Made by a program: the position numbers and the translations under genes. DNA of 32,000 nucleotides from assembly GCF_000299365.1 (NCBI RefSeq), contig NC_018655.1:630001-662000 (forward strand). The letters run 5' to 3'. Positions 21,104 through 32,000 of the stretch are shown here, piece by piece. The notes under the pieces are model-generated. The model was given only the letters and a program-made list of their open reading frames with translations, was not told where the DNA came from and made no database searches. Source of the stretch: Candidatus Nitrosopumilus koreensis AR1. Lineage in GTDB: Archaea > Thermoproteota > Nitrososphaeria > Nitrososphaerales > Nitrosopumilaceae. The number at the start of each line of letters is the position of its first letter. Positions within the stretch are counted from its first letter, which is position 1.

Positions 21104-21253
21104 GAATTACAAAATACGTTTCTGGCATATTAACAAATTCTCTATTTTCAGTTTTGAGACTATAAGGATCATTGATTTTCAAAGAATTTACCATTAACCT
21201 AGTTCATTTTTAATAGTACTGATTTTTAGAGGCAATACAAGGAAATTTTGTAC

Positions 21254-23119: not shown

Positions 23120-25312
23120 ATGGTAAAATTCAAGTCAACCAGTGAGGTCCTGAAAATTATCAAAAACAAGGATCAGATCCGAAACTTTGGTGTTATTGCT
23201 CACGTTGACCACGGAAAGACTACCATGAGTGACAGTCTCTTGGCTTACTCTGGAATTATCGCTCCATCAGCTGCTGGAAAGGCACTTGCAATGGACTTTG
23301 ATAAAGAAGAGCAACAAAGAGGAATTACAATTTATCAGGCAAACGTTACTTTGCTGTTTTCACAGAAAGGAAAAGAATATGTCATTAACATGATTGATAC
23401 CCCTGGACACGTAGACTTTAGTGGAAGGGTAATTCGTAGCCTTAGGGCAATTGATGGTGCAGTGGTTGTATGTGATGCTGTTGAGGGTATAATGACTCAG
23501 ACTGAAACTGTAACTAGAATGGCACTAGAGGAGAGGGTAAAACCTGTATTGTTTATCAACAAAGTAGACAGACTCATCAAGGAACTGCGATTGACTCCTG
23601 AAAAGATGCAGGCACAATTAGCAGAAGTCGTTTCAAACTTTAATCAATTAATTGACACATATGCAGAACCTGAATACAAAGAAAAGTGGAAGGTATCAAT
23701 TCAGGATGCAAGTGTCACATTTGGTTCTGCAAAGGACAGATGGGCAATTAACATAGATTTGATGAAAGAAAGAGGAATCACATTCAAAGATGTCATTGAT
23801 GCATATACAAATGAAAAAGTAGAAGAACTAGTAGAGAAAGCACCACTAGCTGATGCAGTTCTTGGAATGGTTGTAAAGCATCATCCTGCTCCACACGAGG
23901 CAGTCCAGTACAGAATTCCACAAATCTGGAAAGGTGATTTGGAGTCTGATGTTGGCAAAGCACTACTTGCATGCGATGATACTGGTCCGACAATTATGAT
24001 GATTGTAAACATGGTCTTAGATCCTGCAGCAGGTCCTGTTGCAATTGGAAGACTGTTCTCTGGAACAATCAAAGACGGACAAACTATCAACATTATAGAT
24101 GAAAAACGTGAAGGAAGAGTTCAGTCTGTAAACTTTTTCATGGGAAACCAAAGAGAGCAAGTTGGTGAGCTTGGCGCTGGAAACATTCCTGCATTATTAG
24201 GATTAACTGAAGCTAGAGCAGGAAACACATTATCATCTGTTAAGGGAATTCAAATGTTTGAAGGTGTAAAGTATGTCTCTGAACCTGTTGTTCAAGTTGC
24301 AATCGAGCCAAAACATCCTAAAGATTTACCTAAACTAGTCGAAGTTCTAAAACAACTAACAATTGAGGATCCTAACCTTATCGTAAAGATTGATGAGGAG
24401 AGCGGTGAGACAATTGTTGCAGGAATGGGTGTGTTACACCTTGATGTTGCCACTCACCGTATCCAGGATGCCAAAGTCGAGATTGTTACATCTGAACCTC
24501 TGATTAACTACAGAGAGACAGTAAAGTCTGCATGTGAGCCAATCATGGCAAAATCTCCAAACAGACACAACAAGATCTTCATGAAAGTCGAGCCACTAGA
24601 GCCTGCAATTGCAAACATGTTAAGAACAGGCGAAATCAGCGACATGAAAGACAAAAAAGTTGTTGCTGACTTGCTAAAGGGCGCTGGATGGGATACTGAT
24701 ACAATTAAGAGAGTGATGAAGTTTGATTCTCGCGGCAATGTCTTGATTAACGGAACAAAAGGTGTTCAATTTGTACAAGAGTCAACTGACTCTATTAACT
24801 CTGGATTTGAAGAAGTAATGAAAGAAGGACCTCTCTGCAGAGAGCAGATGAGGGATTGTAAATTCACGTTTACTCACTTTGTACCTCACGAGGACACTGC
24901 ACACAGGGGTTTGTCTCAACTGGGACCAGCTTCTCGTCGTGCATGCATGGGTGCATTGCTTACTGCAGGAACTGCAGTGCTAGAGCCAACTCTGGCAATT
25001 GAGGTTCGTGTGCCAACTGACTTGGTTGGAAACGTCGCCACTGTTCTTTCTGGAAAACGTGGCAAGGTCTTGGACATGTCACAAAAAGGCGCATCAAGTA
25101 TCGTTACAGGTGAGATTCCAGCCTCTGAGACATTTACATTGTCTGAAGAGATGAGAGGCCAGACTGCAGGACGTGCTACATGGAATACTTCCTTTAAGGC
25201 ATGGACTGAGGTTCCAAAATCAATGCTTGCAACAGCTGTTGCTGATATCAGAAAGAGAAAGGGACTAGCACCAGATCCTCCAAGAGCAGAAGAGTTTATT
25301 GATAAAGAGTAA
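23120..25312 (+). CDS. fusA: translation elongation factor aEF-2
   Basis: GTPase motifs AHVDHGKTT, DTPGH and NKVDR. Diphthamide loop HEDTAHRG. 730 aa. Confidence 0.97.
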   Translation: MVKFKSTSEVLKIIKNKDQIRNFGVIAHVDHGKTTMSDSLLAYSGIIAPSAAGKALAMDFDKEEQQRGITIYQANVTLLFSQKGKEYVINMIDTPGHVDFSGRVIRSLRAIDGAVVVCDAVEGIMTQTETVTRMALEERVKPVLFINKVDRLIKELRLTPEKMQAQLAEVVSNFNQLIDTYAEPEYKEKWKVSIQDASVTFGSAKDRWAINIDLMKERGITFKDVIDAYTNEKVEELVEKAPLADAVLGMVVKHHPAPHEAVQYRIPQIWKGDLESDVGKALLACDDTGPTIMMIVNMVLDPAAGPVAIGRLFSGTIKDGQTINIIDEKREGRVQSVNFFMGNQREQVGELGAGNIPALLGLTEARAGNTLSSVKGIQMFEGVKYVSEPVVQVAIEPKHPKDLPKLVEVLKQLTIEDPNLIVKIDEESGETIVAGMGVLHLDVATHRIQDAKVEIVTSEPLINYRETVKSACEPIMAKSPNRHNKIFMKVEPLEPAIANMLRTGEISDMKDKKVVADLLKGAGWDTDTIKRVMKFDSRGNVLINGTKGVQFVQESTDSINSGFEEVMKEGPLCREQMRDCKFTFTHFVPHEDTAHRGLSQLGPASRRACMGALLTAGTAVLEPTLAIEVRVPTDLVGNVATVLSGKRGKVLDMSQKGASSIVTGEIPASETFTLSEEMRGQTAGRATWNTSFKAWTEVPKSMLATAVADIRKRKGLAPDPPRAEEFIDKE

Positions 25313-25434
25313 AAATAGAATCCCCCCATTCCGTTCCTAATTCACTGCTGTTTTTCGTTATGACTAGAGAATGATTTGGATTATGATTTGTTGCAATCTT
25401 TTGAAATACTAGGTATTGAATAATTTTTTATTAA

Positions 25435-25935
25435 ATGAAACCTATTACAATTTTCAGATTTTTTTCACCAATCAGATATATTGAAATTATTGCAGTTCTT
25501 TCTGCTTTTCAAATTTTAGATATTGCTTGGCAATCAGACGTTATCATCTTCAATTTTTTCTTTCCGGTAATTATCGGAAGTGCTGCATTTGATGCAGTGT
25601 TTCACAAGGATGGTTTCAAAGCTGGTTTCAAAAGTGCAGGGATAAAATACTATACAGGAATGGGGATCCAATTTGTAGGAAGCGCTGTTTCAGCATTAGC
25701 CAGTTTCAATACAGATCCAGAAAAAATTCCAGTCATTATCATGTATACTGTGCTTCTGTTAGGAATAGGCGGAGCACTAGAAGGATTTCATTTTTTTTCT
25801 GAAAAGAAACTCAAAAACATTGTATTAACACCTGTTCAAAAAATATTGGCATTAATTGGACTTACTCTTCTGATATTTTTCTTTGGGCTTTACACAGTTC
25901 TTGAATTAGTTCCACGCACACCATGGTTTAATTGA
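25435..25935 (+). CDS. integral membrane protein (casposon cargo)
   Basis: 166 aa with about 5 hydrophobic helices. No motif recognised. Confidence 0.6.
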   Translation: MKPITIFRFFSPIRYIEIIAVLSAFQILDIAWQSDVIIFNFFFPVIIGSAAFDAVFHKDGFKAGFKSAGIKYYTGMGIQFVGSAVSALASFNTDPEKIPVIIMYTVLLLGIGGALEGFHFFSEKKLKNIVLTPVQKILALIGLTLLIFFFGLYTVLELVPRTPWFN

Positions 25936-25942
25936 TTATGTT

Positions 25943-26986
25943 TTGACACTCAAAAATCAGAAAAACCACTACAATGTAAAATTCCTTAAAGGCTACGGTC
26001 ACTCTATCTCGGTAAAAGATTCCAAAATAATTCTAAAGTCAAACCACGACCCATTTTCTCCACCAGAACAAGAAGAATGGTTTGTCAAAAACATGCCATA
26101 TGAGAAAATAGTTCTTTCAGGCAAAGGATATGTCTCAACTGAAGCATTATCATTACTTTCAGAGAACAATCGCAATGTCATTTTGTTAGACAATCACGGA
26201 AAGCCTGTTACATTCTGCAATGGCATGATGGATTCTCTCACTGCCACAAAATACAGAATGGCACAATATGATACATTCCGAAATCCTGAGAAATGTGAGT
26301 ATCTGCGTAAGCAGATTATATCTGCAAAGAAAGAATCTCAACTAAAGTTATTACGATTAATTGGAAGTGAAATTTCAGAACTTCCAGATTCAGAACACAT
26401 TTCAGCCAAAGTCTATTGGACAGAATTTGCAAAATTTATCCCTGAAAAATATCAATTTCATTCCAGAAACCAATCTCACATCACATCATCAAAAAATAAC
26501 GCAACTGACATCATCAATGCTCTGCTAAACTACGGATATTCTGTACTTGCAGGAGAAATTTCCAAGTTTGTATGTGGATTTGGTCTTGACCCGTACCTTG
26601 GATTCATGCATCGTTCTCATACAGGATTTCAGCCATTGGTGTATGATATCATAGAACCGTTCCGATGGTTAGTGGATTATACTGTTTATTCCATGGCAAA
26701 TCATAGTTCCACAAGACAGAGAATTAAACTCAAAGAGTATAGTTTTACAAAAGATGGAACTGTAGTTTTGGAATATTCTTTGATCAAGAGATTTTTGGAG
26801 ATGTTAGAAAGACAGTTTTCTCAAGAGAGAAAGTATTCGTTTAGACATGGAAAGAAGACAAAGGATGGTTTGAAATCCGTTCAAGAAATTACTGTTGTAA
26901 AGATTATAATTCAAAATTTAGTAGAATACAGTACAGGAAAACAAAAAAGTTTAGAATCTAATAATTTTGCTTTTTTCGATTTCTAA
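25943..26986 (+). CDS. cas1: Cas1-family integrase (casposase)
   Basis: Cas1 core motifs NATDIINALLNYGYSVL, GLDPYLGFMH and LVYDIIEPFRWLVDY. TTG start in the track; the first ATG is about 50 codons in. Confidence 0.9.
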   Translation: MTLKNQKNHYNVKFLKGYGHSISVKDSKIILKSNHDPFSPPEQEEWFVKNMPYEKIVLSGKGYVSTEALSLLSENNRNVILLDNHGKPVTFCNGMMDSLTATKYRMAQYDTFRNPEKCEYLRKQIISAKKESQLKLLRLIGSEISELPDSEHISAKVYWTEFAKFIPEKYQFHSRNQSHITSSKNNATDIINALLNYGYSVLAGEISKFVCGFGLDPYLGFMHRSHTGFQPLVYDIIEPFRWLVDYTVYSMANHSSTRQRIKLKEYSFTKDGTVVLEYSLIKRFLEMLERQFSQERKYSFRHGKKTKDGLKSVQEITVVKIIIQNLVEYSTGKQKSLESNNFAFFDF

Positions 26987-27359
26987 ACAATGGAAAAATA
27001 ATGACAATTACAGAAATTATTGCAAATACTATTCCATATGGAAATGGAAAAATCATTTGAAATCCAAAAAATGCTATTATGCTAGCAATGATTGCAAGTA
27101 CACGGTTTGTTGTAGTTTGTGAGGAATTTTTCATGACAGCACCGGCAATTGTTAATCCAAGACCTACAACTACAATAACTGCAGAAATGGTTTGTATCTG
27201 ATAAACTGTTTGACATCCACTGCTTATGTTTGTGGAAATTACCTGACCAAACTGTCCCACAAATGAGCCACAATTAGAAACATCAGGTTGAATCGTAAAA
27301 TACACAAAAACTCCAATAACCATCAAAATAATACCAATAATCAGAATTGGGGTGTTCAT
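26958..27359 (-). CDS. integral membrane protein (4 TM, casposon cargo)
   Basis: 133 aa with four hydrophobic helices. Preceded by repeated promoter motif copy 1. Confidence 0.6.
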   Translation of the reverse strand: MNTPILIIGIILMVIGVFVYFTIQPDVSNCGSFVGQFGQVISTNISSGCQTVYQIQTISAVIVVVGLGLTIAGAVMKNSSQTTTNRVLAIIASIIAFFGFQMIFPFPYGIVFAIISVIVIIFPLFRNRKKQNY

Positions 27360-27375
27360 AAAAATTAGAATATTA

Positions 27376-27389
27376 GTATGAACTTAAGC
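27376..27389 (-). promoter_or_regulatory. repeated promoter-like motif, copy 1 (GCTTAAGTTCATAC on minus strand)
   Basis: Exact 14-mer gtatgaacttaagc, 16 nt upstream of the ATG at 27359. Confidence 0.55.
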
Positions 27390-27402
27390 GTTTAGAAATA
27401 AT

Positions 27403-27597
27403 CTAATATTGTCTATATTTCTGAAAAGATCCTTTTCTTTTACAGTTGGCACATTTTGCATTCTTTGACCAGCCCTCAACTGACCAACCATGACCAATTC
27501 TAACTGTGATTACTCTGTCACAGTTTGTGCAGATTACTTTTACCTGATAGGATTTCTTTGGGTCAGGTTCTCCTTTTAACCACTCTTTGAGCCCCAC
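27403..27597 (-). CDS. small four-Cys zinc-ribbon protein
   Basis: CTNCDRV ... CANCKRKG in 64 aa. GTG start. Preceded by motif copy 2. Confidence 0.55.
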   Translation of the reverse strand: MGLKEWLKGEPDPKKSYQVKVICTNCDRVITVRIGHGWSVEGWSKNAKCANCKRKGSFQKYRQY

Positions 27598-27613
27598 AAT
27601 AGAATTTCATTGT

Positions 27614-27633
27614 GTATGAACTTAAGCATATTG
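27614..27633 (-). promoter_or_regulatory. repeated promoter-like motif, copy 2
   Basis: gtatgaacttaagcatattg, identical over 20 nt to copy 3. Lies 16 nt upstream of the start at 27597. Confidence 0.55.
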
Positions 27634-27643
27634 AAGTTTACAC

Positions 27644-27940
27644 TTAGGGGAAAATCTTATTCAATTCTGGGCTTTCCTCAATCTGTTTTTCTAGATTCAC
27701 ACACATATCACGATTAAAATCAGGATATTTCCAACAAAACTCTCTTGCCTCTTGGATGTATTCTAGTTCGCATTTGATCCATTCATCTCCTGATGCTCGC
27801 AAAATTTGGCATTCAGTATGACCAGTAGATAGTCTCTCTGCCCATTGTTGTTTTTGATATTCCTCATTGGCAATATATGCAATAATTGCAATTAGAAGTA
27901 TTCCTCCAACAACCCCAAGAATAACTTGAATTCGATTCAC
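27644..27940 (-). CDS. N-terminally anchored small protein
   Basis: 98 aa with the TM helix ILGVVGGILLIAIIAYI, then a Cys-containing soluble part. GTG start. Preceded by motif copy 3. Confidence 0.55.
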   Translation of the reverse strand: MNRIQVILGVVGGILLIAIIAYIANEEYQKQQWAERLSTGHTECQILRASGDEWIKCELEYIQEAREFCWKYPDFNRDMCVNLEKQIEESPELNKIFP

Positions 27941-27955
27941 AATCTCATTTGTTTA

Positions 27956-27975
27956 GTATGAACTTAAGCATATTG
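27956..27975 (-). promoter_or_regulatory. repeated promoter-like motif, copy 3 (in divergent intergenic region)
   Basis: gtatgaacttaagcatattg, 15 nt upstream of the start at 27940. Also 35 nt upstream of the plus-strand gene at 28011. Confidence 0.55.
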
Positions 27976-28010
27976 GCAAAGGAAATAAACTGGCAATCTA
28001 TGATCATATT

Positions 28011-28808
28011 ATGAAATTTGTACTATTGTTAATTTTGATAGGGATGATTACTCCTGTATTTGCACAAGAATCATCTTTTGATGAACAATTAATGAATAGT
28101 ACAGAATATTCGAAAATCATAGATAGGTTATACCTCCTTGAAAATGAAAATAAACAACTTGAAAATTTAATTCATAATTTTGATGATGGAATTTCTTCAA
28201 AATTATCTAAAATTGATGAATCTTTAATTCAATCTGGAGATGTTGCAAACAAATCCCTTTGGTTGGGACTCTATATTTCCATGGTATTTGCAGGAATTGC
28301 CATTGCAGCAACAATAATTTATTCTATAAAATTAGGATCTCAAACCAAATTAATTGAAACTGATATCAAAACACGGATCAGACCAATTTTAAGTCGAAAA
28401 GAATTACGAAAAAAAATTACTAATTCAACAGAACAACACGTAGGTGAATTACACACACTTTCTAAACAAAAAGCTCTATTTCATTTTCAGAATACAGGTA
28501 CATTGCCTGCGGTAAATATATCTCGGAATTATTATGCTGAGATTAGAGAAACACCTTCCAATGAAATCAAACTAGATCCTACAAAATATGTGGATGCCTT
28601 CAAAATGGCCTCATTGGCCCCAAATGAATACTATAGTACAGATATTTTTTGGCTTGATCCATGTTTTGATGATGCAGTGGATAAAAATACATGTTATTTT
28701 GGATTGATAATTTGGTATCATGATTCAAAAGGTACAAGATATCACTATCACATAGAAGGATATTTTGACAAAGGAGAAATGATGTTAAATCACGTAGATA
28801 TGGATTAA
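28011..28808 (+). CDS. membrane protein with signal peptide, coiled-coil-like segment and one TM helix
   Basis: N-terminus MKFVLLLILIGMITPVFAQE and mid-protein TM helix LWLGLYISMVFAGIAIAATIIY. No motif recognised. Confidence 0.6.
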   Translation: MKFVLLLILIGMITPVFAQESSFDEQLMNSTEYSKIIDRLYLLENENKQLENLIHNFDDGISSKLSKIDESLIQSGDVANKSLWLGLYISMVFAGIAIAATIIYSIKLGSQTKLIETDIKTRIRPILSRKELRKKITNSTEQHVGELHTLSKQKALFHFQNTGTLPAVNISRNYYAEIRETPSNEIKLDPTKYVDAFKMASLAPNEYYSTDIFWLDPCFDDAVDKNTCYFGLIIWYHDSKGTRYHYHIEGYFDKGEMMLNHVDMD

Positions 28809-29071
28809 ACTTCACAATAAGGGCATTCGACTTCTTCTTTGTGTGATTTAACCAAACTTACAAACTGTGACAAACATTCAGTACAAACATACTTCAGTCT
28901 TTTTCTTTTCTGAGTCTTATAATACATTGCCATAATCCAATTCACTCTTTGAGTTCTAAAATTTCCTTCCTCATCATAATAGTAGATGTGCCATCGCTTC
29001 TTTGTGGATGTTTTGTGTCTGTGGTTTCCTCGATGTGTGTATGTTTTTGACACTGAAACAACTAGTTTCAT
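28805..29071 (-). CDS. small basic four-Cys protein
   Basis: 88 aa. CTEC ... CPYC at the C-terminus, Lys/Arg/His-rich. Co-directional with and downstream of the wHTH gene. Confidence 0.55.
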   Translation of the reverse strand: MKLVVSVSKTYTHRGNHRHKTSTKKRWHIYYYDEEGNFRTQRVNWIMAMYYKTQKRKRLKYVCTECLSQFVSLVKSHKEEVECPYCEV

Positions 29072-29115
29072 GCTACCTCTATGCTACTTCAAACTAATAA
29101 GAACAGATTATGATG

Positions 29116-29730
29116 TTATTTTTTAATTTTAAATTCAGGACGGTCAACATTTAATGAAAATTCTAATTTTCTACTTGATAATATCTGCATCATGACGGGA
29201 TAAACAATTTTGTAATCTTTGTCTTTTCTAACCAAATTAATGATTTTTCTAATTCTTTTTTTGAGTTTTATTCTTTCTTTTTTCAAAGATTCCTCACTAG
29301 GGTTCTCTAATGATTCCAATAAGGACAATTGAGAAATATTTTGTAATGCTAATTGTATTTGAAACAATGCTTCACCAGTTTTTTGCATTGTAGATAATTC
29401 AGAATATCTTTTTTCCAACATTTTTGTATCGTGCTCATCAAACATTGACCACACTAAAACAGATTTTCTCAAATCGTCTGGATTGATTTGCTCTTTTCCC
29501 TCATTAAATGAATACTGTGTTTGTCTCCCAACTTTATTTACAAATATCAGTCCTCTTGAAATTAGTGATTGTATTGCTCTTTGAGCAGTCTTTTTTGCCA
29601 TGTATTTTGGAACAGAAAGATCTAAAATTCCATTATGATGAATATCGGGATTTTTTTGTATAATTTCCAGTATTTTGAACTCGTATTGAGTCATTTCAGA
29701 AGAATTTGGTCGTAATTGTGCGTAATCCAT
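29116..29730 (-). CDS. winged-helix transcription regulator
   Basis: N-terminal EFKILEIIQKNPDIHHNGILDLSVPKYMAKKTAQRAIQSLISRGLIFVNKVGRQTQYSF is a MarR/wHTH-like pattern. C-terminal helical region. Confidence 0.65.
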   Translation of the reverse strand: MDYAQLRPNSSEMTQYEFKILEIIQKNPDIHHNGILDLSVPKYMAKKTAQRAIQSLISRGLIFVNKVGRQTQYSFNEGKEQINPDDLRKSVLVWSMFDEHDTKMLEKRYSELSTMQKTGEALFQIQLALQNISQLSLLESLENPSEESLKKERIKLKKRIRKIINLVRKDKDYKIVYPVMMQILSSRKLEFSLNVDRPEFKIKK

Positions 29731-29731
29731 A

Positions 29732-29755
29732 GTAGGTTAACCTACCACTGGTAGG
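29732..29755. promoter_or_regulatory. operator-like triple half-site GTAGG-ttaa-CCTAC-cactg-GTAGG
   Basis: Perfect 14-bp palindrome gtaggttaacctac (29732..29745), overlapping a second inverted pair cctac/gtagg (29741..29755). Starts 2 nt upstream of the wHTH start codon, in the divergent promoter region. Confidence 0.5.
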
Positions 29756-29785
29756 CTATACTTGCATTATAGTGTATAGTATGTT

Positions 29786-30019
29786 ATGACTTTGAAGAAA
29801 ATCAAACCCAAAGACATGATTTTAGAACCAGTAATTACTGACTTTGGAAACAGAAAGGTATCGCAACAGAATTTTTCAAAGATTGTTGCTCTGCCAAAGA
29901 CTGCATTGGATAACTGTGGCATAACCACAGATGTCAATGTAAAACTGGTTCAGTTTGATGGAGAAAAGTTTCTGACACTTTCTCCAGTAATTGAAAAAGG
30001 AGGTGATAAAACTGAGTGA
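29786..30019 (+). CDS. AbrB/MazE/SpoVT-like DNA-binding protein
   Basis: NFSKIVALPKTALDNCGITTDVNVKLVQFDGEKFLTLSPV resembles the looped-hinge-helix pattern (compare MazE [38 protein letters not shown], from memory). Confidence 0.5.
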   Translation: MTLKKIKPKDMILEPVITDFGNRKVSQQNFSKIVALPKTALDNCGITTDVNVKLVQFDGEKFLTLSPVIEKGGDKTE

Positions 30020-30346
30020 GACCCTCTATCCTCCATTTTTAAAATGGGGGCAGTACACATCTCAAGACTCTGAGAATCCTGACACCATAGAGCTCAAGGT
30101 TGCTGAAACCAATACCTTTGAGACAGAATTCTCAATCAATGTACTAGCATTGATTAAAGAAAAAAGACATGGAAAGAATACAACGTTAAACTGAAAAACC
30201 ATGATTCAGCAAATGCTTCTTTCCTAAACCAGTGGAACAGGATTGCAAAGTCACTTCACAAAGGAGACATACTGGTTCTCAAGACGTGGCTTGGAACATC
30301 AAAGAATGGAAGAAAAATCAGGAGGTACAGTCTAGAGAAACTCTAG
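29991..30346 (+). pseudogene. hypothetical gene in two frames joined at an A6 run
   Basis: Frame of 29991..30194 (track ORF) plus the frame of 30158..30346, which is 62 open codons (RKKTWKEYNVKLKNHDSANASFLNQWNRIAKSLHKGDILVLKTWLGTSKNGRKIRRYSLEKL) with no ATG/GTG/TTG. The switch is at A6 30160..30165. Confidence 0.45.
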
Positions 30347-30378
30347 ACTCTCCTTTTTTTGACAATAGTGATGGTATT

Positions 30379-30695
30379 ATGGCAGAAGACAAAGATAAAC
30401 TTTTGAAACAGTTAGACGCACTCAAGATTTTTCCAAACAACAAACTAGTAAGAGAATTAAAGAATCAAATTAAAACAAAATTAAAAAATTAGAAATTACA
30501 AAACCCATTCCACCAAAGAAAAATCCAAACCTTACACGCTCAAACAAACTAAAGCGATATCACAACTACATCAGGCAAATCAGAAACAACTTTCCAAATC
30601 TAAAATACAACCAGATAAGAAAACAGTTTGCAAAACGAAAGCGTGGCGATGACGTATCAATTCCTGATGCAGTATGGCAGAATCCGTCCCCGTAA
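30379..30695 (+). pseudogene. hypothetical gene upstream of polB in two frames joined at an A6 run
   Basis: ATG 30379 gives MAEDKDKLLKQLDALKIFPNNKLVRELKNQIKTKLKN*. From 30474 another frame is open for 73 codons to 30695 with no ATG/GTG/TTG (…LEITKPIPPKKNPNLTRSNKLKRYHNYIRQIRNNFPNLKYNQIRKQFAKRKRGDDVSIPDAVWQNPSP). The switch is at A6 30483..30488. Confidence 0.45.
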
Positions 30696-32000
30696 CTGAC
30701 TGCAAGAATCTGAGAAGAGTATTTACAAAAAAGCCTCAGAACAGAGATCCTGCAACATCGCACAAGAGAAGAGTCTATGCAATTGATACAGAAACCTATA
30801 ACGGCAACATCTTTCTGATTGCCGACTCTGATGGGAGATTCTTGGATAAAATCACGCCAAAATCATGCCTAGACTGGCTGTTTTGCAGAAAATATGAGGG
30901 TTCGTGGTGCTTTTTTTATCATCTCGGGTATGATGCAGAAGTAATTCTGAAACTTTTAGGCTCTGAACTATTCAAGTACAAAAATACTGGAAGACTGAAA
31001 TTCTCCTTTGAAAATTACACCATAGAGTATCATCCAAACAAGTGTCTGAAAATATCAAAGGGACATCACTCTGTGATATTTTATGACATTGCGCAATTCT
31101 ATCATGCAAAACTATCTGATGCATATCAAAACAATATCAGAAAACTACCTAAAGAGTATCTTGACATAAAGTCAAAAAGGAGTCAGTTCTCAATTACATT
31201 TTACAAAAGAAACACAAGAAAAATCAGAGATTACTGCATCACAGACTGCAAACTGACAAAAGAGTTGGCAGAGCACTGGATAAAATTATTCCATGATGCA
31301 TTTGGATTCTATCCTGCAAGATGGGTATCCTCTGGATATCTGGCAGAAAAAGTCTTGATCAACAACGGAATCAATTTCCCAAAGTTTGATGATGTTCCAT
31401 ATGATGTTCAGGAGATGGCGTTTTCATGTTACTATGGAGGACGATTTGAAATTACAAAGCGTGGATTTATTGGAACTGCTTACAAGTATGATATCAACTC
31501 TGCATATCCCCATTCCCTGACAAAGATTCCTGACCTGACCAAAGGACGATGGATTAAAAGAAAGTCAATTCACAAAGATGCAAAACTTGGATTCTTTAGG
31601 ATTATTGCAGACATTCCAGACTGCAAGTATATTCCACCGTTTCCGTTTCGTACCAATGGAATTATTATTTTTCCTAGTGGAAAGTTTGAAACGTATGTTA
31701 CATTACATGAACTAAAAGTTGCAGATTCAAAACATTACAAAATTTTGGATTCATATCAGTTCATTCCAAACGGCAAGCCAGTCTATCCTTTTGAGAAATT
31801 TGTTCATTCAATGTATGATAAAAGACTGGAACTAAAGAAAGACGGAAACCCATTGCAGTTGCCAATCAAGATAATTCTCAATTCAATCTATGGAAAGACT
31901 GGTCAGAAAGTCAATAGAATAATGGGAAATCTGTTCAATCCTGTGATTTTTGCAAGTATTACAGGCATGACTCGTGCCTGCCTGTATGACTTTGTGATGC
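30674..32000 (+). CDS. polB: family B DNA polymerase, protein-primed (phi29-like) type, 3' end beyond window
   Basis: Not in the ORF track because it has no stop in the window. My translation from ATG 30674 gives ExoI YAIDTET, ExoII FFYHLGYDAEVIL, ExoIII DYCITDCKL, motif A YDINSAYP and motif B KIILNSIYGKTG. 442 codons are open to the window edge. Confidence 0.92.
   Translation, partial: MAESVPVTDCKNLRRVFTKKPQNRDPATSHKRRVYAIDTETYNGNIFLIADSDGRFLDKITPKSCLDWLFCRKYEGSWCFFYHLGYDAEVILKLLGSELFKYKNTGRLKFSFENYTIEYHPNKCLKISKGHHSVIFYDIAQFYHAKLSDAYQNNIRKLPKEYLDIKSKRSQFSITFYKRNTRKIRDYCITDCKLTKELAEHWIKLFHDAFGFYPARWVSSGYLAEKVLINNGINFPKFDDVPYDVQEMAFSCYYGGRFEITKRGFIGTAYKYDINSAYPHSLTKIPDLTKGRWIKRKSIHKDAKLGFFRIIADIPDCKYIPPFPFRTNGIIIFPSGKFETYVTLHELKVADSKHYKILDSYQFIPNGKPVYPFEKFVHSMYDKRLELKKDGNPLQLPIKIILNSIYGKTGQKVNRIMGNLFNPVIFASITGMTRACLYDFVM

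What the first reader, a model, noticed from the sequence alone, without database searches (positions are those of the whole stretch)
30674..32000. Unlisted open-ended ORF is a phi29-like family B DNA polymerase
The six-frame track omits this ORF because it runs off the window. Translation from ATG 30674 gives 442 uninterrupted codons with ExoI D38/E40 (YAIDTET), ExoII D87 (GYDAEV), ExoIII Y187/D191 (YCITD), motif A D273 (YDINSAYP) and motif B K399 (KIILNSIYGKTG). These residue numbers are my own count. The short N-terminus and the spacing of the motifs parallel phi29-type protein-primed polymerases rather than the large replicative archaeal PolBs. Motif C (YxDTD) should lie just beyond position 32000.
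Basis: partly seen in the sequence, partly recalled or inferred. Interest (0 to 1): 0.7.

Follow-up and report, generated by a model that had tools for sequence, protein, structure and literature searches.

The report
Casposon protein-primed DNA polymerase gene
The open-ended ORF is the first three quarters of the phi29-type DNA polymerase gene of a known self-replicating transposon (casposon NitAR1-C1), inserted behind the elongation factor 2 gene of the ammonia-oxidising archaeon Nitrosopumilus koreensis AR1; it is real and correctly read, but already published.

Summary
It matches Pfam DNA_pol_B_2 (E 2e-26). It is the N-terminal 74% of a 594-aa protein that NCBI already names "type B DNA polymerase [Ca. 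Nitrosopumilus koreensis AR1]". An AlphaFold model of the full protein matches phi29 DNA polymerase best (E 2.5e-16, TM up to 0.62), ahead of RNA-primed archaeal PolBs (E about 1e-10, TM about 0.36-0.41).

The gene belongs to an 8.2-kb family 1 casposon. Upstream are aEF-2, a 13-bp target-site duplication, a 66-nt terminal inverted repeat and a solo Cas1. The right end lies beyond the window. This is NitAR1-C1 (Krupovic 2014). Its casposase and target-site duplication were characterised biochemically in 2021.

Three details differ from the prediction:
- Motif C lies just past the window end but reads FATDS, not YxDTD. This is invariant in the family.
- TPR1 is present, but TPR2 is almost absent.
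- Two single-A deletions (30160, 30483) truncate two conserved genes upstream, including the candidate terminal protein.

Protein priming itself has not been tested for any family 1 casposon. Verdict: already known, low interest.

The parts
23120..25312 (+). aEF-2 (translation elongation factor 2) gene, the host target gene. The casposon sits at its 3' end. The T of its TAA stop is the last base of the TSD, and the casposon supplies the AA.
   Evidence: Pfam GTP_EFTU, EFG_III, EFG_IV and EFG_C. The literature names ef-2 as the family 1 target (PMC4046053, PMC6563490).
25298..25310 (.). Left copy of the 13-bp target-site duplication ATTGATAAAGAGT, preceded by the TTT leader. The right copy lies at window-equivalent 33490-33502, outside the window.
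   Evidence: There are exactly two exact copies in the extended sequence. They match the experimentally defined TSD: 13 bp, A1, T2=T3, ATAA at 5-8, A11, T13, TTT leader (PMC8464041).
25311..25405 (.). Left terminal inverted repeat. It is perfect for 66 nt counted from 25310 and degenerate to about 25405. It contains the conserved terminal core TAGAATCCCCCC (25316-25327). The right arm ends at window-equivalent 33489/33490.
   Evidence: Inverted blastn match of window 25310-25405 to L007 15482-15386. The same core occurs at both ends of casposons in L001, L002 and L004.
25435..25935 (+). 166-aa hydrophobic ORF with no family match, the first gene inside the element.
   Evidence: ORF list. No Pfam hit. 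Called as a gene in L007, L013 and L014.
25943..26986 (+). Cas1-solo casposase, 347 aa, without an HTH domain.
   Evidence: Pfam Cas_Cas1 E 8e-43. TIGR00287 at 137 bits against a cut-off of 71.7. The length and residues R113, K117, K184, Y197 and Y234 match the enzyme studied in PMC8464041. There is no CRISPR array in the window.
26958..29730 (.). Element-specific cargo: small ORFs 26958-27359(-), 27403-27597(-, weak zinc-ribbon hits), 27644-27940(-), 28011-28808(+), 28805-29071(-, weak zinc-ribbon hit), 29116-29730(-, weak winged-HTH hits). Also three copies of a 20-nt motif at 27376, 27614 and 27956.
   Evidence: All these Pfam hits are below the curated cut-offs.
29786..30019 (+). orfA (77 aa), the first of the three conserved small genes upstream of the polymerase.
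   Evidence: Conserved and syntenic in L001, L003, L005 and L006.
29991..30194 (+). orfB, truncated here to 67 aa by a single-A deletion at 30160 (A7 to A6). The intact form is 118 aa.
   Evidence: Base-by-base comparison. ORF comparison. The intact frame is conserved in L001 and L003-L006.
30232..30695 (+). orfC, the candidate terminal protein. It is truncated here to 86 aa (30232-30492) by a single-A deletion at 30483. The conserved C-terminal half (...RSxKLKRYHxY...IPDAVWQNPSP) is encoded in 30484-30695 in a different frame. In the intact form the stop overlaps the polymerase ATG by 22 nt.
   Evidence: The terminal-protein proposal for the gene at this position comes from PMC4046053. No homology to a known terminal protein was found.
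30674..32000 (+). Polymerase gene, codons 1-442 of 594. This covers the exonuclease domain (ExoI-III), palm motif A, the TPR1-like insertion (about residues 285-372), motif B in the fingers and the vestigial TPR2 loop. Motif C (FATDS, residues 453-457), the thumb and the stop (window-equivalent 32458) lie beyond the window.

Best explanation
The ORF is the 5' three quarters of the polymerase gene of casposon NitAR1-C1. This is an 8.2-kb family 1 self-synthesizing transposon inserted at the 3' end of the aEF-2 gene of Candidatus Nitrosopumilus koreensis AR1.

Shown here:
- The protein belongs to the protein-primed branch of family B polymerases.
- Its 3'-5' exonuclease motifs and polymerase motifs A and B are intact.
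- It has a phi29-like fold.
- The gene lies inside an element bounded by a terminal inverted repeat and a 13-bp target-site duplication, next to a solo Cas1.

Shown by others: this Cas1 integrates TIR-ended DNA sequence-specifically into exactly this target in vitro.

Inferred, not shown: after excision the polymerase copies the element, starting at the inverted-repeat ends from a hydroxyl group of a terminal protein. The terminal protein is probably the product of the conserved gene (orfC) whose stop overlaps the polymerase start. Cas1 then inserts the new copy behind ef-2.

Two caveats on the mechanism:
- The enzyme lacks most of TPR2, the phi29 subdomain that gives processivity and strand displacement. 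It may therefore need a partner for those properties.
- In the sequence as given, orfC and its neighbour orfB are frameshifted. Either this copy is defective or the two homopolymer runs were miscalled.

The confidence given applies to the identity and family assignment. The protein-priming step on its own I would put at about 0.7.
For: - Identity: the fragment is 100% identical to P0001, a 594-aa protein named by NCBI for Ca. N. koreensis AR1 and found on a 1.64-Mb contig. Window 24674-32000 is 100% identical to GCA_000328925.1.
- Match to the published element: the window differs from GCA_000328945.1 inside the element by exactly two single-base deletions. PMC4046053 states the same for NitAR1-C1 against NitSJ-C1.
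- Family: DNA_pol_B_2 E 2e-26; PHROG 11768 DNA polymerase E 2e-50.
- Fold: model pLDDT 82 and pTM 0.76. The top nine PDB matches are all phi29 DNA polymerase, E 2.5e-16 to 2.7e-15 and TM 0.52-0.62. RNA-primed PolBs follow at E about 1e-10 and TM 0.35-0.41.
- Catalytic residues: D38, E40, D87, Y187, D191, D273, K399, Y406, G407 and D456 are invariant in 40 homologues.
- Element: Cas1, 66-nt perfect TIR, exact 13-bp TSD equal to the experimentally defined one, ef-2 target.
- Conservation elsewhere: orfA-orfB-orfC-PolB synteny with Cas1 in six distant thaumarchaeal loci. The TIR core TAGAATCCCCCC is conserved at both element ends in L001, L002 and L004.
- Nearest viral relatives are polymerases of linear-genome viruses: His1, His2, ABV and tectiviruses.
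Against: - No experiment on any family 1 casposon polymerase or terminal protein was found in the searchable literature. Protein priming is therefore inferred by homology only.
- Motif C lacks the first Asp (FATDS), and the KxY lysine aligns with Asn (QNGFY).
- The TPR2 segment is 20 residues, against 40 in phi29. It is only 4 residues longer than in E. coli Pol II, which has no TPR2.
- orfC has no detectable similarity to known terminal proteins. It is truncated in the window.
- The right TIR, the right TSD copy, motif C and the thumb lie outside the window. They are known only from identical public assemblies.
Confidence: 0.9

Rival explanations
1. The identity is the same, but the polymerase does not use a terminal protein. 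It would start DNA synthesis de novo, like the primer-independent PolBs of pipolins, or extend primers made by host enzymes. orfC would then have another role.
For: The first Asp of motif C is lost, as in piPolB (SxTTDG), which is active and primer-independent (PMC5695915). The KxY lysine is replaced. TPR2 is vestigial. orfC has no terminal-protein homology. No biochemistry exists for this enzyme.
Against: The piPolB signatures (TTD, KTRG) are not present. Here the motifs read ATD and QNGFY. The same ATD/LTD/ETD variants occur in His1, His2, ABV and tectiviruses, which have linear genomes. A conserved small gene overlaps the polymerase start by 22 nt in all loci, the typical position of terminal-protein genes (PMC4046053). 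A TPR1-sized insertion is present, and in phi29 TPR1 contacts the terminal protein. The element has long perfect TIRs.
Confidence: 0.12
2. The copy in this genome is a decaying, non-autonomous casposon. The polymerase gene is still intact, but two conserved accessory genes, including the candidate terminal protein, are inactivated by frameshifts. The polymerase would then be a relic here.
For: Single-A deletions at 30160 and 30483 cut orfB from 118 to 67 aa and orfC from 154 to 86 aa. The intact frames are the ones conserved in six distant loci. The same deletions are present in assembly GCA_000328925.1 and are reported in PMC4046053. Losing orfC translation could also uncouple polymerase translation, because the two genes overlap by 22 nt.
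Against: All four differences between the two assemblies over 13.8 kb are length changes in A or T homopolymer runs, with no substitutions. That pattern is typical of homopolymer sequencing errors. The shared 14 kb holds 18 runs of 7 or more A/T. The polymerase, Cas1, TIRs and TSD are all intact. The two records carrying the deletions may derive from the same reads.
Confidence: 0.3
3. The polymerase belongs to an integrated virus, for example a His1-like or Nitrosopumilus spindle-shaped provirus, rather than to a transposon.
For: The closest viral polymerases belong to the archaeal viruses His1, His2 and ABV. Several element ORFs have no known function.
Against: The element is only 8.2 kb. It is bounded by a TIR and a TSD and carries Cas1 as its only integrase. 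No capsid, packaging or tyrosine-integrase match was found for any ORF. The architecture is exactly that of published family 1 casposons.
Confidence: 0.02
4. It is a cellular RNA-primed replicative or repair PolB of the archaeon.
For: It is a family B polymerase with intact exonuclease and polymerase motifs. The loop after motif B is as short as in RNA-primed PolBs.
Against: The only Pfam match is DNA_pol_B_2, the organellar and viral type. The fold match to phi29 is six orders of magnitude better in E-value and about 0.2 higher in TM than to archaeal PolBs. The protein is 594 aa against more than 750 aa for those PolBs, and has no N-terminal domain. The gene lies inside a mobile element.
Confidence: 0.01

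Closest known systems
pPolB of casposon NitAR1-C1 / NitSJ-C1 (family 1 casposons; Krupovic et al. [quoted passage not shown]
   Same: It is the same gene. The fragment is 100% identical to the AR1 protein. The host gene target, Cas1, TIR and TSD are the same, as are the two single-nucleotide deletions relative to the sister element.
   Different: Nothing differs. The window holds only residues 1-442 of 594 and only the left end of the element.
pPolBs of haloarchaeal viruses His1 (Halspiviridae) and His2 (Pleolipoviridae)
   Same: They are the best viral matches (E 1e-29 and 2e-28, 25-28% identity). Their motif C has the same Ala in place of the first Asp (LATDC, FATDC). The xGxY variant of KxY and a small gene directly upstream of the polymerase are also shared. 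The literature places casposon pPolBs as their sister group.
   Different: His1 and His2 polymerases are about 720 aa. They carry a 58-64-residue segment where the casposon enzyme has 20, so their TPR2 region is long. They belong to viruses with capsids and no Cas1.
Bacteriophage phi29 DNA polymerase (PDB 1XHX, 2PYJ, 2EX3)
   Same: It is the best structural match (E 2.5e-16, TM up to 0.62). Its size is similar (575 against 594 aa). ExoI-III and motifs A, B and C align residue for residue, and there is a TPR1-sized insertion between motifs A and B.
   Different: Sequence identity is only 13-15%. Sequence-only searches do not connect the two. Motif C is FATDS against YCDTDS. The KxY lysine is Asn. 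The TPR2 segment is 20 residues against 40. The phi29 activities (terminal-protein priming, processivity, strand displacement) are untested here.
Acidianus bottle-shaped virus (ABV) pPolB
   Same: It also has a short segment after motif B (19 residues, so TPR2 is nearly absent) and a motif C without the first Asp (LTDS). E-value to the query is 6e-20.
   Different: It comes from a crenarchaeal virus and is 653 aa with a longer N-terminus. It is a more distant relative than His1 and His2.
Primer-independent PolB (piPolB) of pipolins (Redrejo-Rodriguez et al. 2017, PMC5695915)
   Same: It is a self-replicating integrated element with a pPolB-related polymerase. The first Asp of motif C is lost, yet the enzyme is active.
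   Different: piPolB has TTD and KTRG signatures and both TPR1 and TPR2. Pipolins use tyrosine integrases and are bacterial or mitochondrial. Here the motifs are ATD and QNGFY, TPR2 is vestigial, the integrase is Cas1 and the host is archaeal.
Family 2 casposons (e.g. AciBoo-C1)
   Same: They share a Cas1 casposase, TIRs, a TSD of about 14 bp and a self-encoded PolB.
   Different: Their PolB is of the RNA-primed type. Their Cas1 carries a C-terminal HTH. Most insert at tRNA genes.

Membership tests
Pfam DNA_pol_B_2 (PF03175), organellar/viral family B polymerases | Score above the curated gathering cut-off | tested here: met
   93.2 bits against a cut-off of 25.8, E 2.2e-26, for the 442-aa fragment alone. 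PF03175 is precomputed for all 120 listed homologues.
Protein-primed PolB (phi29 type) | 3'-5' exonuclease motifs ExoI (DxE), ExoII (D) and ExoIII (YxxxD) | tested here: met
   D38/E40, D87 and Y187/D191 are invariant in 40 sequences. They align with phi29 D12/E14, D66 and Y165/D169.
Protein-primed PolB (phi29 type) | Polymerase motif A (DxxSLYP) and motif B (KxxxNSxYG) | tested here: met
   YDINSAYP (D273) and KIILNSIYGK (K399) are invariant. They align with phi29 D249 and K383.
Protein-primed PolB (phi29 type) | Canonical motif C YxDTDS with both aspartates | tested here: not met
   The motif is F453-A454-T455-D456-S457, invariant in 40 sequences. A454 aligns with phi29 D456 and D456 with phi29 D458. 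Only the second, metal-binding Asp is kept. The same loss occurs in His1, His2, ABV and tectiviruses and in the active piPolB. It lies outside the window, at window-equivalent nt 32030-32044.
Protein-primed PolB (phi29 type) | KxY motif in the palm/thumb | tested here: not met
   phi29 K498-T-Y500 aligns with N488-G-F490(Y491). Q487, N488 and G489 are invariant. The alignment in this region is of moderate reliability.
Protein-primed PolB (phi29 type) | TPR1 insertion between motif A and the fingers | tested here: met
   There are 126 residues between D273 and K399, against 134 in phi29. hhalign pairs query 285-372 with phi29 261-358 with few gaps. The model shows a beta-rich block at 291-365. 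Interaction with a terminal protein was not tested.
Protein-primed PolB (phi29 type) | TPR2 insertion after motif B | tested here: not met
   The segment from YGK to ITxxxR is 20 residues in four casposon enzymes. It is 40 in phi29, 58 in His1, 64 in His2 and 19 in ABV. It is only 4 residues longer than in E. coli Pol II. The model shows a minimal hairpin at 411-418 with pLDDT 54-67.
Protein-primed PolB (phi29 type) | Overall fold closest to phi29 DNA polymerase rather than to RNA-primed PolBs | tested here: met
   In the Foldseek search of PDB, ranks 1-9 are all phi29 DNA polymerase (E 2.5e-16 to 2.7e-15, TM 0.52-0.62). Thermococcales PolBs follow from E 1.3e-10 with TM 0.35-0.41.
Protein-primed PolB (phi29 type) | A terminal protein encoded next to the polymerase, and covalent protein priming | tested here: inconclusive
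   The conserved orfC overlaps the polymerase start by 22 nt in all loci. It has no detectable terminal-protein homology and is frameshifted in the window. The priming chemistry cannot be tested with these tools.
Family 1 casposon | Cas1-solo casposase without an HTH domain; no CRISPR array or other cas genes nearby | tested here: met
   The protein is 347 aa with Cas_Cas1 as its only domain. Its residues match the studied AR1 casposase. No array-like repeats occur in the window. None of the 10 element-side ORFs scanned with Pfam matched another cas family.
Family 1 casposon | A protein-primed-type PolB, the feature that defines family 1 against families 2-4 | tested here: met
   The definition is in PMC4046053.
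Family 1 casposon | Terminal inverted repeats flanked by a target-site duplication | tested here: met
   66-nt perfect TIR. Exact 13-bp TSD copies at 25298-25310 and window-equivalent 33490-33502. The right-hand copies lie outside the window and were read from the identical assembly L013.
Family 1 casposon | Insertion at the 3' end of ef-2 in a thaumarchaeon (common but not universal) | tested here: met
   aEF-2 ends at 25312, on the TSD/TIR junction. L001 has the same arrangement. The protein is named for Ca. N. koreensis AR1.
Family 1 casposon | Three conserved small genes immediately upstream of polB | tested here: met
   orfA, orfB and orfC are syntenic in L001-L006. In the window itself orfB and orfC are interrupted by single-base deletions.

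The most novel reading that the evidence does not exclude
Family 1 casposon polymerases, like that of ABV, may be a natural TPR2-less form of protein-primed PolB, combined with an ATD motif C and a lysine-less KxY motif. If so, they would not be processive, strand-displacing, phi29-style replicases on their own. They might depend on a partner, such as the conserved orfA/orfB/orfC products or a host clamp or helicase, or start synthesis in another way. I found no paper that comments on the missing TPR2 in casposon enzymes.
Probability: 0.15. Interest if true: 0.55.

Novelty: already known. Interest (0 to 1): 0.18.

Why it matters
Casposons are thought to be the ancestors of the CRISPR adaptation module, and family 1 is the only family with a protein-primed-type polymerase. 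This element, NitAR1-C1, is the family's reference member. It was described in 2014, and its casposase was dissected biochemically in 2021. Finding it again adds no new biology, but it shows that the first-stage reading was accurate.

What remains open is how the element replicates, since nobody has tested the polymerase or the proposed terminal protein. Three details seen here bear on any such experiment: motif C reads ATDS, TPR2 is nearly absent, and orfB and orfC are frameshifted in the AR1 sequence. In particular, the SJ version of orfC should be used rather than the AR1 version.

Tried and rejected
- **Sequence searches against PDB.** phmmer with the fragment and hmmsearch with a 40-sequence profile found no significant polymerase match. 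The only polymerase hit was a weak one to E. coli Pol II over motif B. The link to phi29 needed a predicted structure. hhalign against a single phi29 sequence gave a low probability (6%, E 0.006), but it aligned motifs A, B and C correctly.
- **NCBIfam.** No model matches the polymerase.
- **Small conserved ORFs.** Pfam on orfA, orfB and orfC gave only sub-threshold, implausible hits (NAL1_N, Vasohibin). The precomputed weak DUF1340 hit for orfC did not reappear. I rejected all of these as annotations.
- **RNA genes and CRISPR.** The window has no tRNA, no Rfam family and no CRISPR-like array. This rules out a tRNA target site and a canonical CRISPR-Cas locus.
- **Species-representative genomes.** The genome-contig scan did not contain this genome; the best match was 69% identical. 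An exact-protein look-up recovered it instead.
- **Repeats within the window.** These could not show the TIR, because the right arm lies outside the window.
- **Readings considered and rejected.** A provirus (no capsid, packaging or tyrosine-integrase hits, and Cas1/TIR/TSD present); a cellular RNA-primed PolB (profile, fold and size all disagree); and a fusion of orfC to the polymerase caused by the frameshift (the displaced orfC tail is in a different frame from the polymerase).
- **Phylogeny.** I did not build a new tree, because published trees already place these enzymes next to His1 and His2 and the tblastn ranking agrees.
Full report
**1. The observation**

Translating window 30674-32000(+) gives 442 codons with no stop. 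From the window's base composition, about 6.8% of random codons are stops. An open run of this length therefore has a probability of about 3e-14. The frame has several stops just upstream, the last one 4 codons before ATG 30674, and that ATG is the first start codon.

The ORF is absent from the ORF list only because it runs off the window.

**2. What the protein is**

- The fragment matches Pfam DNA_pol_B_2, the organellar and viral family B polymerases, at 93 bits against a cut-off of 25.8.
- It matches PHROG 11768, a DNA polymerase family, at E 1.6e-50.
- A search of 5.8 billion proteins found 693 relatives at E <= 1e-5. Every hit that carries an organism name is thaumarchaeal.
- The top hit, P0001, is 100% identical over the fragment. 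It is 594 aa long and NCBI names it [quoted passage not shown].
- In an alignment of 40 full-length members, all catalytic residues are invariant: D38, E40, D87, Y187, D191, D273, K399, Y406, G407.

An AlphaFold2 model of P0001 built on that alignment has mean pLDDT 82 and pTM 0.76. In a Foldseek search of PDB, its nine best matches are all phi29 DNA polymerase (E 2.5e-16 to 2.7e-15, TM 0.52-0.62). RNA-primed archaeal PolBs follow at E about 1e-10 and TM 0.35-0.41. Sequence-only searches of PDB do not reach phi29.

**3. Where it sits**

The window is chromosomal DNA of a low-GC archaeon (about 35% GC). Reading towards the polymerase gene:

| Window coordinates | Feature | Evidence |
|---|---|---|
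| 23120-25312 | aEF-2 gene | |
| 25435-25935 | 166-aa hydrophobic ORF | |
| 25943-26986 | 347-aa Cas1 (Pfam E 8e-43; TIGR00287 at 137 bits) | |
| 26958-29730 | several small ORFs without family matches | |
| 29786-30695 | three small ORFs (orfA, orfB, orfC) | |
| 30674-32000 | polymerase gene, cut by the window end | |

An exact-protein look-up recovered the same locus from two public assemblies.

- GCA_000328925.1 (L013) is 100% identical to window 24674-32000 and extends it.
- GCA_000328945.1 (L007/L014) differs only in the lengths of A or T homopolymer runs.

In the extended sequence the polymerase gene runs to window-equivalent 32458, giving 594 aa. A 314-aa SLFN_AlbA_2-domain gene follows it.

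Window 25310-25405 is the inverted repeat of window-equivalent 33490-33394. The first 66 nt match perfectly. The 13-mer ATTGATAAAGAGT occurs exactly twice, at 25298-25310 and at 33490-33502, flanking the repeats. The element is therefore 8,179 bp long (25311-33489). The last base of the left duplication is the T of the ef-2 stop codon TAA, and the element supplies the AA.

**4. It is a known element**

Krupovic et al. 2014 (PMC4046053) defined family 1 casposons by four features: Cas1-solo plus a protein-primed-type PolB, TIRs and a TSD, insertion in the 3' end of aEF-2 in Nitrosopumilus, and conserved small genes upstream of polB. [quoted passage not shown] That is exactly the difference between L014 and the window inside the element.

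Wang et al. 2021 (PMC8464041) purified the 347-residue AR1 casposase. They showed sequence-specific integration and defined the true TSD as 13 bp inside a putative 22-bp repeat. Their TSD has a TTT leader, A1, ATAA at positions 5-8, A11 and T13. The window's sequence fits at every one of these positions. The residues they mutated (R113, K117, K184, Y197, Y234) are all present at those positions in the window's Cas1.

The window therefore carries the left 82% of NitAR1-C1.

Six more distant thaumarchaeal loci show the same orfA-orfB-orfC-PolB block:

- Cas1 lies nearby in five of the six.
- ef-2 lies directly upstream in L001.
- The TIR core TAGAATCCCCCC sits at both element ends in L001 and L002, and a TGCAATCCCCCC variant does so in L004.

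**5. How the polymerase departs from the phi29 template**

I checked my typed phi29 sequence against PDB 1XHX. It matches over all 575 residues apart from the crystal construct's D12A and D66A exonuclease mutations. I then aligned it to the family by profile and by MAFFT together with His1, His2, ABV and two tectivirus polymerases.

- **Motif C.** It reads F-A-T-D-S and is invariant in the family. Alanine takes the place of the first Asp, and the second Asp (D456, matching phi29 D458) is kept. The neighbours show ATDC (His1, His2), LTDS (ABV) and ETDG/ETDA (tectiviruses). Redrejo-Rodriguez et al. 2017 had already noted this variation in archaeal pPolBs. They also showed with piPolB that only the second carboxylate is needed.
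- **KxY motif.** The lysine aligns with N488, within the invariant Q487-N488-G489.
- **TPR1.** A TPR1-sized, beta-rich insertion is present at about residues 285-372.
- **TPR2.** The segment is nearly absent. From YGK to ITxxxR there are 20 residues in four casposon enzymes and 19 in ABV. There are 25-29 in tectiviruses, 40 in phi29 and 58-64 in His1 and His2. The loop is only 4 residues longer than in E. coli Pol II. The model shows a minimal, low-confidence hairpin there.

In phi29, TPR2 gives processivity and strand displacement (as summarised in PMC5695915). I found no paper that notes its absence in casposon enzymes.

**6. The genes upstream**

In L014, orfB is 118 aa and orfC is 154 aa. 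The stop of orfC overlaps the polymerase ATG by 22 nt. These intact frames are the ones conserved in all six distant loci. Conservation is strongest in the C-terminal half of orfC (...RSxKLKRYHxY...IPDAVWQNPSP), and the overlap with polB is conserved too. Krupovic et al. proposed the gene at this position as the terminal protein. I found no homology that supports or refutes this.

In the window, A7 has become A6 at 30160 and again at 30483. These changes cut orfB to 67 aa and orfC to 86 aa. The two assemblies differ at four sites over 13.8 kb. All four are homopolymer length changes, and there are no substitutions. I cannot tell real frameshifts from sequencing errors.

**7. Mechanism**

- Shown here: the fold, the intact exonuclease and polymerase motifs, and the element's architecture.
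- Shown by others: Cas1-mediated, sequence-specific integration that produces the 13-bp duplication.
- Inferred from homology and gene position: the polymerase replicates the excised element from its TIR ends, using the orfC product as primer.
- Open: whether an enzyme without TPR2 can do this alone, and whether the AR1 copy is functional.

**8. Verdict**

The finding is real and correctly interpreted. However, the gene, the protein, the element and its integrase are all published, so the novelty is "already known" and the interest is low. The one detail I could not find in the literature searched here is the vestigial TPR2. The motif C variant and the two deletions are already published. All three bear on any future biochemistry of this enzyme.

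Noticed in passing
window 30160 and 30483 (also 21207): Compared with assembly GCA_000328945.1, the window has single-base deletions in homopolymer runs. Those at 30160 and 30483 are A7 to A6; the one at 21207 is in a T run. The first two truncate the conserved casposon genes orfB (118 to 67 aa) and orfC (154 to 86 aa; the candidate terminal protein). The third is intergenic. There are no substitutions in 13.8-14 kb, so these may be real frameshifts or homopolymer sequencing errors.
   Followed up: yes
window 27376-27395, 27614-27633, 27956-27975: A 20-nt motif, GTATGAACTTAAGCATATTG, occurs three times (two exact copies and one with 3 mismatches) against 0 expected by chance. Each copy begins exactly 16 nt upstream of the start codon of one of three consecutive minus-strand small genes, whose starts are at 27359, 27597 and 27940. 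It may be a shared promoter or operator inside the casposon. It occurs nowhere else in the window.
   Followed up: partly
window-equivalent 33503-33522 (L013 8830-8849), just beyond the right TSD: The host sequence after the right TSD, AAAAAGGCAGTCCCCCCTCC, resembles the start of the casposon TIR, AAAAATAGAATCCCCCCATTCC. It could be a remnant of an older insertion or a feature of the target site. This is unexplained.
   Followed up: no
window 30674-30695; L001 8543-8561, L002 10001-10019, L003 2568-2586, L004 10001-10019, L006 7648-7666: The stop of orfC overlaps the polymerase ATG by 22 nt (ATGGCAGAATCCGTCCCCGTAA), and both reading frames are conserved across distant casposons. This suggests translational coupling of the two genes.
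   Followed up: partly
L001 (8543-10306 and 14643-16418), L003 (2568-4352 and 9482-11266), L004 (2421-2882 and 10001-11788): Three of the six related loci carry two pPolB genes, 46-68% identical to the query. In L001 and L003 the second copy has its own orfC next to it, and in L001 also orfA and orfB. These look like tandem or neighbouring casposons, as reported for Ca. N. adriaticus NF5.
   Followed up: no
L001 5559 / 11031; L002 7905 / 12475; L004 4439 / 13274; window 25316-25327: The terminal TIR core TAGAATCCCCCC (TGCAATCCCCCC in L004) is conserved at both ends of family 1 casposons whose polymerases are only 57-69% identical to the query. The implied element sizes are about 4.6 to 8.8 kb.
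   Followed up: partly
window-equivalent 32475-33419 (L013 7802-8746), outside the window: The last gene of the element encodes a 314-aa protein with a Schlafen/AlbA_2 domain (Pfam E 1e-20). Its 3' end runs into the right TIR. Its role is unknown.
   Followed up: no
window 27403-27597(-) and 28805-29071(-): Two small casposon ORFs (64 and 88 aa) give weak zinc-ribbon hits. The ORF at 29116-29730(-) gives weak winged-helix hits. All are below the Pfam cut-offs. They may be DNA-binding regulators of the element.
   Followed up: no
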